This document shows positions 10,764 through 11,329 of a DNA stretch of 15,280 nt, piece after piece; the first letter of the stretch is position 1; every line of letters starts with the position of its first letter. The stretch lies in the IMG/VR virus record IMGVR_UViG_2740892369_000045. One strand, given 5' to 3'. The notes under the pieces are model-generated. The model saw only the letters and a program-made list of their open reading frames with translations, made no database searches and was not told the DNA's origin. A program made the translations under genes and the position numbers. The DNA comes from a virus (lineage: Duplodnaviria > Heunggongvirae > Uroviricota > Caudoviricetes).

Positions 10764-10767
10764 CCCC

Positions 10768-10798
10768 AAATCCCGCCACAACGCGGGATTTTTATTTT
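10768..10798 (+). terminator. Rho-independent terminator-like hairpin: 9-bp stem AAATCCCGC / GCGGGATTT, 6-nt loop, followed by TTTTTATTTT
   Basis: Perfect inverted repeat read from the sequence 5 bp after the gemA stop, with a downstream T-tract; candidate end of the early operon. Confidence 0.6.
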
Positions 10799-10832
10799 AA
10801 ACTTACCGGGAACGCGAGAACCGGAGGCTGAT

Positions 10833-11258
10833 ATGGCAGAAACTCAGATGAGCATGTTTGGTGGTGACAGTGAGCAACTGCACGCCCTTATCGACCGCCT
10901 TGATGACATCCCTGATGATGTTCTCAAAAAGAACTGGCCGCGGACCCTGTCAGAACTGGTTGAAGTCACCGGCGCAGAACTTCAGCGTCAGGGGATTGAG
11001 CCGGTACTGGCCGGCAAACTGGCACGCAAGGTGGCTGCGGCTCAGGCAGCCTATATGGGCGGACGGGGTTATTACCTGCCGGTCGGGGAATCTCTCTTTG
11101 CCGAGCTGCGAAACAATGAGATATTTTCGCGCTGGGACCGGGGCGAGAAAATTGAATCCCTTCGCCGCCATTACCGGATGTCAGAAACCCAGATTTATAC
11201 CGTCATACGTGAACAGCGCCGTCTGCATCTGGCAAGAACACAACCGCCACTTTTCTGA
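10833..11258 (+). CDS. Mor/C-family transcriptional activator (middle/late gene activator)
   Basis: 141 aa; C-terminal region YYLPVGESLFAELRNNEIFSRWDRGEKIESLRRHYRMSETQIYTVIREQRR fits the Mor/C family pattern; RBS GGAGG before the ATG; positioned between gemA and the endolysin. Confidence 0.75.
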   Translation: MAETQMSMFGGDSEQLHALIDRLDDIPDDVLKKNWPRTLSELVEVTGAELQRQGIEPVLAGKLARKVAAAQAAYMGGRGYYLPVGESLFAELRNNEIFSRWDRGEKIESLRRHYRMSETQIYTVIREQRRLHLARTQPPLF

Positions 11259-11329
11259 TATTCCGCAAAGCCTGCCGCCTTTCCTTCACCGTTACGCTGA
11301 CTCAGAGAACATCATGAGACAGCGTAACA

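What the first reader, a model, noticed from the sequence alone, without database searches (positions are those of the whole stretch)
10764..11329. Only one Mor/C-family activator between gemA and the lysis genes, preceded by a strong hairpin
In Mu, gemA is followed by mor, then the middle promoter, then the paralogous late activator C, then lys. Here a single Mor/C-family gene (10833-11258) sits between gemA and the endolysin, and no second paralogue is apparent in the window. It is separated from gemA by a perfect 9-bp-stem hairpin with a T-tract (10768-10798), only about 35 bp before its start codon. The hairpin may be the early-operon terminator, the dyad binding site of an activator-dependent promoter, or both. 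This suggests a regulatory cascade shortened relative to Mu.
Basis: partly seen in the sequence, partly recalled or inferred. Interest (0 to 1): 0.55.

Follow-up and report, generated by a model that had tools for sequence, protein, structure and literature searches.

The report
Single C-type activator behind terminator-promoter hairpin
This Mu-like E. coli prophage has one late-gene activator where phage Mu has two, and the hairpin in front of that gene looks like both the stop signal of the early operon and part of a promoter the activator may switch on itself; the one-activator layout is common and already reported, while the self-activation is an untested idea.

Summary
The window is the left end of an Sp18-type Mu-like prophage. 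gemA (10254-10763) is followed by a perfect 9-bp hairpin (10768-10791, -13.5 kcal/mol) with a T-tract to 10798. Next come one Mor/C-family gene (10833-11258) and the endolysin (11330).

A family profile run on the six-frame translation of the complete 39-kb prophage finds only this gene. The same profile finds both Mor and C in Mu. The gene is C-like, not Mor-like (39% vs 27% identity), so mor and the middle operon are what is missing.

This is not rare. 83 of 85 related loci have a single activator, and the layout has been noted for Pasteurellaceae Mu-like phages.

The new part concerns the hairpin:
- Its arm core (ATCCCGC/GCGGGAT) is identical in six lineages whose activators are 47-100% identical; the rest of the intergenic region is unalignable apart from the ribosome-binding site.
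- Its left arm (CAAATCCCGCC) matches the boxes of this prophage's lys and I promoters.
- A -10-like hexamer follows at the late-promoter distance.
- The hairpin stays with the activator when morons are inserted.

Best reading: an early-operon terminator fused to a late-type promoter that is probably self-activated. This is inference; no transcript data exist.

The parts
10254..10763 (+). gemA (gp16 family), last gene of the early operon; its stop codon TAA is at 10761-10763, 4 nt before the hairpin
   Evidence: Pfam GemA E=2e-30; RefSeq annotates it as 'gp16 family protein' in the identical prophage.
10767..10777 (+). Left arm of the hairpin, also the late-promoter-type box CAAATCCCGCC (stem part 10768-10776)
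   Evidence: The same 11-mer type sits upstream of lys (CAAAGCCTGCC) and of gene I (CAAAACCCGCC) at a fixed distance from a -10. The exact 9-mer recurs 4 more times in the prophage, all on the + strand; simulated P(>=4)=0.003. The core ATCCCGC is invariant in 8 aligned upstream regions representing six lineages.
10777..10782 (+). Hairpin loop CACAAC
   Evidence: Sequence. The loop varies freely in sequence and length between lineages.
10783..10791 (+). Right arm GCGGGATTT, needed for the RNA hairpin
   Evidence: Perfect complement of the left arm. Of the 9 pairs, 6 never vary and the 2 outermost show compensatory changes (AA/TT to CC/GG in L043).
10789..10798 (+). T-tract TTTTTATTTT of the predicted intrinsic terminator; it contains the -10-like hexamer TATTTT (10793-10798)
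   Evidence: Terminator scan. TATTTT lies 25 nt from the box, against 26 nt in this prophage's lys and I promoters.
10798..10803 (+). Alternative -10-like hexamer TAAACT
   Evidence: It lies 30 nt from the box start. In relatives, TATAAT or TATACT lies at 28-29 nt.
10823..10827 (+). Shine-Dalgarno GGAGG of the activator gene
   Evidence: Sequence.
10833..11258 (+). The only Mor/C-family gene: a C-type late activator of 141 aa
   Evidence: Pfam Mor E=2.8e-32. 39% identity / 105 bits to Mu C against 27% / 51.6 bits to Mu Mor. PDB: C 1e-26, Mor 2e-9. It is the only profile hit in the whole prophage.
11258..11276 (+). Predicted lys-promoter boxes: ATATTCCGC followed by CAAAGCCTGCC
   Evidence: They align with the boxes upstream of gene I and with the hairpin arm.
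11293..11298 (+). Predicted -10 of the lys promoter, TACGCT, followed by CAGAGAA as in Mu Plys
   Evidence: It lies 26 nt from the box. Mu and relatives use 27 nt.
11330..11830 (+). Endolysin, first lysis gene
   Evidence: Pfam Phage_lysozyme E=6e-37.

Best explanation
The prophage runs a two-tier lytic cascade (early, then late) with a single C-type activator.

The hairpin after gemA is an intrinsic terminator that ends most early-operon transcripts. The same 35 bp also carry a promoter for the activator gene:
- the left arm (CAAATCCCGCC) is a copy of the box found in this phage's late promoters;
- the T-tract supplies the -10 (TATTTT, or TAAACT);
- there is no -35 hexamer;
- the predicted start is near 10805-10810.

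Proposed sequence of events: a little read-through from the early promoter gives the first activator molecules. These bind the box and switch on their own promoter. The resulting burst turns on the lys, I and other late promoters. No terminator separates the activator gene from lys, so the activator is in effect the first late gene.

Shown here: one activator gene, C-like; the hairpin and T-tract; conservation of the arm sequence; box similarity and spacing; the hairpin travels with the activator gene.

Inferred, not shown: termination, the transcription start, binding of the activator, and self-activation.
For: 1. One activator only. The profile search of the complete prophage gives a single hit, and the Mu control finds both paralogues. 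83 of 85 related loci are also single.

2. The gene is C-like. It lies directly upstream of lys, as C does in Mu.

3. Terminator anatomy: 9-bp stem with 5 GC pairs, 6-nt loop, U-run, -13.5 kcal/mol, similar to the Mu hairpins after mor and C.

4. The sequence of the arms is conserved, not merely their pairing. ATCCCGC and CGGGAT are invariant in six lineages with 47-100% activator identity, while loops and flanks are unalignable. 6 of 9 pairs never vary.

5. Box identity. CAAA[ATG]CC[CT]GCC occurs 4 times in the prophage, all on the + strand, against a simulated mean of 0.23. Three of the four lie 60-70 bp upstream of the activator, lys and I start codons.

6. Geometry of box to -10:
- 27 nt in all four Mu late promoters and in lys and I of four relatives;
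- 26 nt in this prophage's lys and I;
- upstream of the activators, 28 nt (TATAAT in L067 and L088, TATACT in L050), 29 nt (TATACT in L045) and 25 or 30 nt in the window.

7. When different morons are inserted between gemA and the activator, the hairpin is duplicated. One copy stays at its normal distance from the activator ATG (L004, L005, L027, L034; independently L050/51).

8. Precedent in Mu. The Mor site of Pm (-51 to -36; +1 deduced here as 9224 from PMC4390567 and PMC4287176) overlaps the left arm and loop of the hairpin that follows mor. Mor/C-dependent promoters have a -10 but no -35 (PMC2582627).

9. The early helix-turn-helix protein (8209-8760) is absent from most divergent hairpin lineages, so it is a poor alternative binder.
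Against: - There are no transcript or binding data.
- The window's own -10 candidates are weak (4/6) and lie in a T-rich tract, where such hexamers arise easily. Their spacing is 25 or 30 nt, against 26 for lys and I.
- In relatives the arm reads AAAT or CAAT where their late boxes read GTAAT or GTAAA. The base equivalent to the T of Mu's ATAA half-site is therefore not shared.
- The 11-mer pattern was defined after seeing the sites, so its statistic is partly circular. The 9-mer statistic is not.
- A/T-flanked CCCGC stems are a common terminator type.
- L043 keeps the dyad but lacks a good T-tract and a -10 at the expected place.
- One relative (L033) has an IS inside the hairpin, and three (L044, L046, L071) have a different upstream region without it. 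The element is therefore not indispensable in every lineage.
- A self-activating promoter with a near-consensus -10 would need tight silencing in the lysogen, which is unexplained.
Confidence: 0.5

Rival explanations
1. The hairpin is only a terminator or attenuator. The activator has no promoter of its own and is made solely by partial read-through from the early promoter, so late timing is set by distance and termination efficiency.
For: Canonical terminator anatomy. The window's -10 candidates are weak. In Aeromonas-type relatives gemA overlaps the activator gene, so co-transcription with the early operon clearly works for this family. The hairpin starts only 4 nt after the gemA stop codon, so a terminating ribosome could reduce termination (inference).
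Against: It does not explain why the arm sequence is identical in lineages with about 50% activator identity. It does not explain why TATAAT or TATACT follows the T-tract at the same place in four lineages. It does not explain why the arm matches the lys and I boxes. In L004, L005, L027 and L034 a reverse-strand moron and two hairpins separate the activator from the early operon.
Confidence: 0.25
2. The conserved dyad is the site of another protein that controls a promoter for the activator gene. That protein could be a non-homologous early regulator replacing Mor, the phage repressor or Ner, or a host factor.
For: A perfect palindrome overlaps the -35 and spacer region of a promoter with a good -10 in relatives, which is a typical operator position. 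An early ORF with weak helix-turn-helix matches exists at 8209-8760. Silencing in the lysogen has to come from somewhere.
Against: The spacing between the arm cores differs by up to five base pairs between lineages (loop 4-9 nt), which is unfavourable for a fixed dimer. The early helix-turn-helix protein is missing from L043, L045, L050 and L088. The left arm resembles the phage's own late boxes.
Confidence: 0.12
3. The activator binds both arms as a symmetric 5-6-5 dyad (CCCGC-N6-GCGGG) centred at -43.5 of a promoter lying further downstream, exactly as Mor and C do in Mu.
For: The 5-6-5 architecture fits the window, the 84-88% group, L050, L067 and L088. In the 84-88% allele a TGTAAT hexamer places the dyad centre at about -43.5 (geometry from PMC4390567 and PMC2582627).
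Against: The window allele has AACGCG where TGTAAT would be. L050 and L067 have no -10 at that position but do have consensus hexamers right after the T-tract. L043 and L045 do not keep the 6-bp spacer.
Confidence: 0.08

Closest known systems
Phage Mu late activator C and its late promoters (Plys, PI, PP, Pmom)
   Same: Same protein family and C-like sequence (39% identity; PDB C 1e-26). The gene lies directly upstream of lys. The late promoters have a TAAyCCC-type box at a fixed 26-27 nt from a weak -10 and no -35. The Plys core, including CAGAGAA, is alignable. Clamp-binding-motif-like termini (QMSMF, QPPLF) are present (PMC2582627, PMC12867686).
   Different: In Mu, C is made from the Mor-dependent middle promoter after three small genes and is followed by its own terminator hairpin. 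Here there is no Mor, no middle operon and no terminator before lys. The box of this lineage reads (C/G)AAAnCCyGCC at 26 nt rather than ATAAyCCC at 27 nt.
Phage Mu middle promoter Pm with the hairpin after mor
   Same: A terminator-like hairpin with a T-run at the end of the early operon overlaps the activator-binding site and the -35 region of the next promoter. That promoter has a -10 but no -35 (PMC4390567, PMC4287176).
   Different: Pm is switched on by the upstream paralogue Mor. Here the box resembles the phage's own late boxes, which implies self-activation. The distance from hairpin to -10 is 25-30 nt here against 35 nt in Mu.
Mu-like phages 3927AP2, phiMhaMu2 and SuMu (Pasteurellaceae)
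   Same: A single Mor/C-family gene immediately upstream of lys. This has been explicitly noted as absence of a separate middle/late activator tier (PMC4553209).
   Different: Those authors called the gene mor and did not analyse promoters or terminators. No hairpin-promoter composite or self-activation was proposed.
Sp18 of E. coli O157:H7 Sakai
   Same: The window belongs to this group of Mu-like prophages. O157:H7 genomes match at about 98.5% and other STEC genomes at 100%. Sp18 is predicted intact (PMC2669165).
   Different: I found no published work on its late-gene regulation in the library searched.

Membership tests
[quoted passage not shown] | Significant match to the family profile over the whole domain | tested here: met
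   E=2.8e-32, 111 bits against a cut-off of 24.9, profile positions 2-107 of 107.
[quoted passage not shown] | Small size (about 100-150 aa), acidic N-terminal half, basic C-terminal half (PMC2582627) | tested here: met
   141 aa. The N-terminal half has 12 acidic and 8 basic residues; the C-terminal half has 8 acidic and 12 basic.
[quoted passage not shown] | Invariant glycines in the linker strand before the helix-turn-helix | tested here: met
   G76 is invariant and G77 nearly invariant across 26 family members. G76 and G77 are both invariant among six closer relatives.
Mu C-type late activator (functional counterpart of C) | Closer to C than to Mor | tested here: met
   105 bits / 39% identity against 51.6 bits / 27%. 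PDB: C 1e-26, Mor 2e-9.
Mu C-type late activator (functional counterpart of C) | Gene immediately upstream of the lysis genes; late promoters carry a conserved box about 27 nt from a -10 and lack a -35 | tested here: met
   Gene order. Boxes upstream of lys and I lie 26 nt from TACGCT and TATGCT.
Mu C-type late activator (functional counterpart of C) | Binds those boxes and activates late transcription | not testable with these tools
   Needs EMSA or footprinting and reporter assays.
Mu Mor-type middle activator | Translationally coupled to gemA and followed by a Mor-dependent promoter that drives a second paralogue | tested here: not met
   A 69-nt gap with a hairpin separates gemA from the gene. 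There is no second paralogue in the prophage.
Rho-independent (intrinsic) terminator | GC-rich stem of at least 5 bp, loop of 3-8 nt, followed directly by a U-run | tested here: met
   9 pairs (5 GC), 6-nt loop, TTTTTATTTT, -13.5 kcal/mol.
Rho-independent (intrinsic) terminator | Transcripts actually end there | not testable with these tools
   Needs 3' end mapping or in vitro termination assays.
Mor/C-dependent promoter | Recognisable -10, no -35, activator site overlapping the -35 region at a fixed distance | tested here: inconclusive
   The window has TATTTT at 25 nt or TAAACT at 30 nt from the box (both 4/6), and ATCCCG at the -35 position. Relatives have TATAAT or TATACT at 28-29 nt. No start site is known.

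The most novel reading that the evidence does not exclude
The single C-type activator is positively autoregulated from a promoter built into the early-operon terminator. One 35-bp element would then stop early transcription, as RNA, and start late transcription, as DNA, giving a bistable early-to-late switch without a middle stage. On this view Mu's three-tier cascade arose when such a self-activating gene duplicated, with one copy (Mor) taking over activation of the other's promoter. The duplicated hairpin units that flank morons in relatives would be portable terminator-promoter cassettes.
Probability: 0.4. Interest if true: 0.55.

Novelty: new variant of a known kind. Interest (0 to 1): 0.4.

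Why it matters
Mu is the textbook three-stage cascade of transposable phages, but most of its relatives sampled here have only one Mor/C activator. How such phages delay late genes and keep them silent in the lysogen has not been studied.

A compact element that is both terminator and self-activated promoter would give a simple and testable answer. It would also suggest how the Mor-C pair evolved. In practice, these prophages are frequent in Shiga-toxin-producing E. coli and insert into Stx phages. If the reading is wrong, the locus is an ordinary terminator before an ordinary, already annotated activator gene.

Tried and rejected
- **Second paralogue.** Searched with a 146-member profile, filters off, over all six frames of the full prophage, and with Pfam on 13 early or unknown ORFs. 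None found.
- **Known RNA family.** An Rfam scan of 10500-11500 at E<=1 found nothing.
- **Symmetric dyad centred at -43.5.** It fits only the 84-88% allele (TGTAAT). It does not fit the window, L050 or L067.
- **Mu consensus TTAT-N5-6-ATAA in the hairpin region.** No match by eye.
- **Leftward promoter from the right arm.** By inspection of the reverse complement (sequence), no -10-like hexamer lies at the late-promoter distance.
- **Early helix-turn-helix protein 8209-8760 as the dyad binder.** Its distribution does not follow the hairpin.
- **Distant relatives.** The first attempt with a 26-sequence alignment failed because no stretch was conserved enough. The genome-contig scan returned only 5 Aeromonas loci. 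IMG/VR gave the useful set of 80.
- **First spacing estimate.** I initially measured 35 nt from the distal 9-mer. This was replaced when relatives showed that the proximal box at 26-27 nt is the conserved one.
- **Literature.** Searches for autoregulation of Mor/C proteins or for transcript maps of Sp18-type prophages found nothing relevant.

Full report
**What the window is.**
The window is the left 15 kb of a Mu-like prophage of E. coli. The 1.7 kb around the finding (window 10200-11900) is 100% identical to the chromosome of strain 97-3250 and other STEC, and about 98.5% identical to O157:H7 genomes. It is present in 231 of 5,426 complete E. coli genomes. The same element is annotated as an inserted Mu-like phage inside two Stx phages. 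This is the Sp18 type of O157 Sakai, which was judged intact (PMC2669165).

I fetched the complete prophage with RefSeq annotation as L002 (L002 coordinate = window + 2125) and phage Mu as L003 and L008. Gene order in the window is:
- repressor (534-1247, minus strand)
- ner
- transposase A
- B
- gam
- about a dozen small early ORFs
- gemA (10254-10763)
- the Mor/C gene (10833-11258)
- endolysin (11330-11830)
- spanins
- a TraR/DksA-like gene
- the start of the head genes

**Check of the observation.**
- The hairpin is AAATCCCGC / CACAAC / GCGGGATTT at 10768-10791, followed by TTATTTTA.
- It folds at -13.5 kcal/mol, between the two comparable Mu hairpins: -12.2 after mor and -16.1 after C.
- The activator gene has a good Shine-Dalgarno sequence (GGAGG, 10823-10827) and a Pfam Mor match of 2.8e-32.
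- As a bare pattern the hairpin is not statistically special: the scan finds 25 terminator-like sites against 17.9 +/- 3.8 expected. Its weight comes from the comparative evidence below.

**Is there really only one activator?**
I built a profile from 146 diverse family members. They came from an exhaustive search that found 544 relatives at 50% clustering, plus Mu Mor and Mu C. I ran it with all filters off against every six-frame ORF of at least 25 aa in L002.
- Only the known gene scores (1.9e-49). The next best E-value is 1.5.
- The same search on Mu recovers C (3.5e-49) and Mor (5.4e-35).
- Pfam scans of 13 early or unknown ORFs show no Mor domain.

**Which activator is it?**
It is 39% identical to Mu C (105 bits) and 27% identical to Mu Mor (51.6 bits). 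Among solved structures it matches 'Late transcription activator C' at 1e-26 and Mor at 2e-9. It lies directly upstream of lys, as C does in Mu. Its termini resemble the clamp-binding motifs recently reported for MuC: QMSMF at residues 5-9 and QPPLF at 137-141 (PMC12867686). What is missing relative to Mu is therefore mor, the middle promoter and the three small middle-operon genes.

**How unusual is this?**
Not very. I collected 85 related loci with up to 10 kb on each side (less where contigs end): 5 Aeromonas genomes and 80 IMG/VR contigs, with activator identity from 100% down to 42%.
- Only two loci show any second Mor/C hit.
- In many Aeromonas-type loci gemA overlaps the activator start, so the activator is simply the last early gene.
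- For the Pasteurellaceae phages 3927AP2, phiMhaMu2 and SuMu it has already been pointed out that lys follows the single 'mor' gene directly and that a separate C tier is absent (PMC4553209).

**The hairpin in relatives.**
This is the informative part. In the enterobacterial-type relatives the hairpin sits upstream of the activator with the same arm sequence, although everything else differs:

| Lineage | Activator identity | Hairpin |
|---|---|---|
| Window | 100% | AAATCCCGC-CACAAC-GCGGGATTT |
| 84-88% group | 84-88% | loop CACAGC |
| L043 | 60% | CCCATCCCGC-GTCA-GCGGGATGGG |
| L045 | 57% | AAATCCCG-CCGGTCAGA-CGGGATTT |
| L067 | 55% | AAAATCCCGCC-ATCC-GGCGGGATTTT |
| L050 | 48% | AAAAATCCCGC-ATTATC-GCGGGATTTTT |
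| L088 | 47% | AATCCCGC-TTTTAC-GCGGGATT |

- In an alignment of eight upstream regions, the only invariant blocks apart from a few isolated bases (two T's in the T-tract, two G's of the Shine-Dalgarno) and the ATG are ATCCCGC and CGGGAT.
- Six of the nine pairs never vary. The two outermost change on both sides together in L043.
- Pairing is therefore maintained, but the inner seven positions are held in sequence at a divergence where non-coding DNA is otherwise unalignable. A terminator stem alone would tolerate G-U intermediates and drift. This points to an additional constraint at the DNA level.

**The arm is a late-promoter box.**
The exact 9-mer of the left arm occurs four more times in the prophage, always on the + strand. 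In 3,000 first-order Markov simulations the mean count was 0.56 and P(>=4) was 0.003. One copy lies 47 bp upstream of the protease gene I.

Alignment shows that the lys and I upstream regions share the pattern GAnATyCCG-CAAArCCyGCC-N16-TAyGCT. The 11-mer class CAAA[ATG]CC[CT]GCC occurs four times, all on the + strand: at the hairpin arm, upstream of lys, upstream of I, and once inside the tape-measure gene. The simulated mean is 0.23 and none of 3,000 simulations reached 4. This pattern was defined after the fact, so the 9-mer test is the cleaner one.

I then anchored all promoters on the box:

| Promoters | Box to -10 distance | -10 hexamers |
|---|---|---|
| Four Mu late promoters (annotated from Margolin et al. 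1989) | 27 nt | as annotated |
| lys and I of L043, L045, L050, L067 | 27 nt | weak |
| lys and I of the window lineage | 26 nt | TACGCT, TATGCT |
| Upstream of activator, L067 and L088 | 28 nt | TATAAT |
| Upstream of activator, L050 | 28 nt | TATACT |
| Upstream of activator, L045 | 29 nt | TATACT |
| Upstream of activator, window | 25 or 30 nt | TATTTT or TAAACT |

None of these has a -35 hexamer, which is the hallmark of Mor/C-dependent promoters (PMC2582627, PMC4287176).

**Natural insertion experiments.**
- In L004, L005, L027 and L034 (84-88% lineage), two different morons, each with a reverse-strand gene, lie between gemA and the activator. In L050/51 (48% lineage) there is a forward signal-peptide gene instead.
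- Each insertion is flanked by two copies of the hairpin with its T-tract and -10-like hexamer. One copy follows gemA. The other sits at the normal distance from the activator ATG, and conservation begins exactly at the box.
- The element therefore belongs to the activator module. In these phages the activator can hardly depend on read-through alone.
- Counter-examples exist. L033 has an IS inside the hairpin. L044, L046 and L071 have a different upstream region with its own TACAAT hexamer.

**Comparison with Mu.**
From the published mutant names (-57G, -56T, A3 tract at -55 to -53; PMC4390567) the Pm start is position 9224. The Mor site at -51 to -36 is then AGTAAAGCCGGTTAAT (9173-9188). This site overlaps the left arm and loop of the hairpin AAAGCCGG-TTAAT-CCGGCTTT plus T7 that follows mor.

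Mu already uses a terminator-like hairpin that overlaps an activator site at the end of its early operon. The present element is a variant of that design, in which the box is of the phage's own late type.

**Most likely mechanism (confidence 0.5 for the whole chain).**
1. Early transcripts mostly stop at the hairpin. The anatomy is shown; termination is inferred.
2. Some read-through yields the first activator. This is inferred. The hairpin begins 4 nt after the gemA stop codon, where a terminating ribosome could interfere with folding.
3. The activator binds the left-arm box and activates a promoter whose -10 lies in or just after the T-tract, with a start near 10805-10810. This is inferred from box identity, spacing and conservation.
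4. No terminator lies between 11258 and 11330, so transcription continues into lys. The activator also turns on the lys, I and probably other late promoters.

**Rivals.**
- Terminator or attenuator only: 0.25.
- A different protein binds the dyad: 0.12. The early helix-turn-helix ORF 8209-8760 does not track the hairpin.
- A symmetric dyad at -43.5 of a downstream promoter: 0.08. This fits only the 84-88% allele.

**Novelty and verdict.**
The single-activator layout is real, common and already noted in print. The gene is annotated in RefSeq. The composite terminator-promoter with probable self-activation is, as far as the searchable literature shows, not described. It remains a sequence-based hypothesis. 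I rate it a new variant of a known kind, of moderate interest.

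Noticed in passing
window 3634-3663: A long hairpin (AAATAACCCGAG-cggcgac-CTCAGGTTATTT, 12-13 pairs) lies between transposase A (ends 3626) and B (starts 3698). The T-run is on the minus-strand side. It resembles the Mu hairpin after C (AAATAACCGG...CCGGTTATTT).
   Followed up: no
L002 21345-21359 (outside the window; gene I of the same prophage): The predicted -10 of the gene I promoter (TATGCT) ends 6 nt before the ATG. 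Relatives have CACACT-N6-ATG at the same place. The protease/scaffold mRNA is therefore probably leaderless, unlike in Mu.
   Followed up: partly
L004 2021-2770, L005 2021-2700, L027 2572-3330, L034 8837-9520, L050 3003-3600: Different morons are inserted between gemA and the activator, each flanked by two copies of the hairpin, T-tract and -10-like unit. This occurred in two independent lineages. The unit behaves like a portable terminator-promoter cassette or a preferred insertion point.
   Followed up: partly
L033 8595-9932: A 445-aa IS-type ORF is inserted inside the hairpin, removing its left arm. This is a natural knock-out of the box in an 84% relative.
   Followed up: no
window 14084-14092; L002 27631-27639 and 39434-39442: Further exact + strand copies of AAATCCCGC lie in the large terminase gene, 57 nt into the tape-measure gene, and just after the DUF6645 gene. 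The last forms a CCCGCC/GGCGGG hairpin. None has a -10 at 26 nt; their meaning is unknown.
   Followed up: partly
L002 30599-30631 (inside gene N): GAAACCCTGCC with CACCGT 26 nt downstream lies about 370 nt upstream of baseplate gene P. This is the position of Mu's PP promoter inside N, so it is a candidate P promoter.
   Followed up: no
window 11259-11329: There is no terminator-like hairpin between the activator stop codon and lys, whereas Mu has one after C. The activator gene would be co-transcribed with the lysis genes.
   Followed up: partly
window 10845-10859 and 11241-11255: The activator carries QMSMF near the N terminus and QPPLF at the C terminus. These resemble the beta-clamp-binding motifs recently described for MuC and its family.
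   Followed up: no
window 12505-12732: A TraR/DksA-type zinc-finger gene (Pfam 2.5e-12) sits between the spanin genes and the DUF2730 gene in the late region. It is a possible additional transcription factor.
   Followed up: no
window 8209-8760: An early ORF has sub-threshold helix-turn-helix matches (sigma-70 region 4-like) and is annotated as a DNA-binding protein in RefSeq. It is not conserved in most divergent lineages that keep the hairpin.
   Followed up: partly
L013, L054, L062, L069 and other Aeromonas-type loci, 90 nt upstream of the activator: A third upstream architecture is conserved: AATGTGCGCATAAAATGGCCTGTGTTCTAATCGGCGCACCGCTTTTTCTGTTTTGCC. The activator there lies about 2 kb from gemA. 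It may be another terminator/promoter solution.
   Followed up: no
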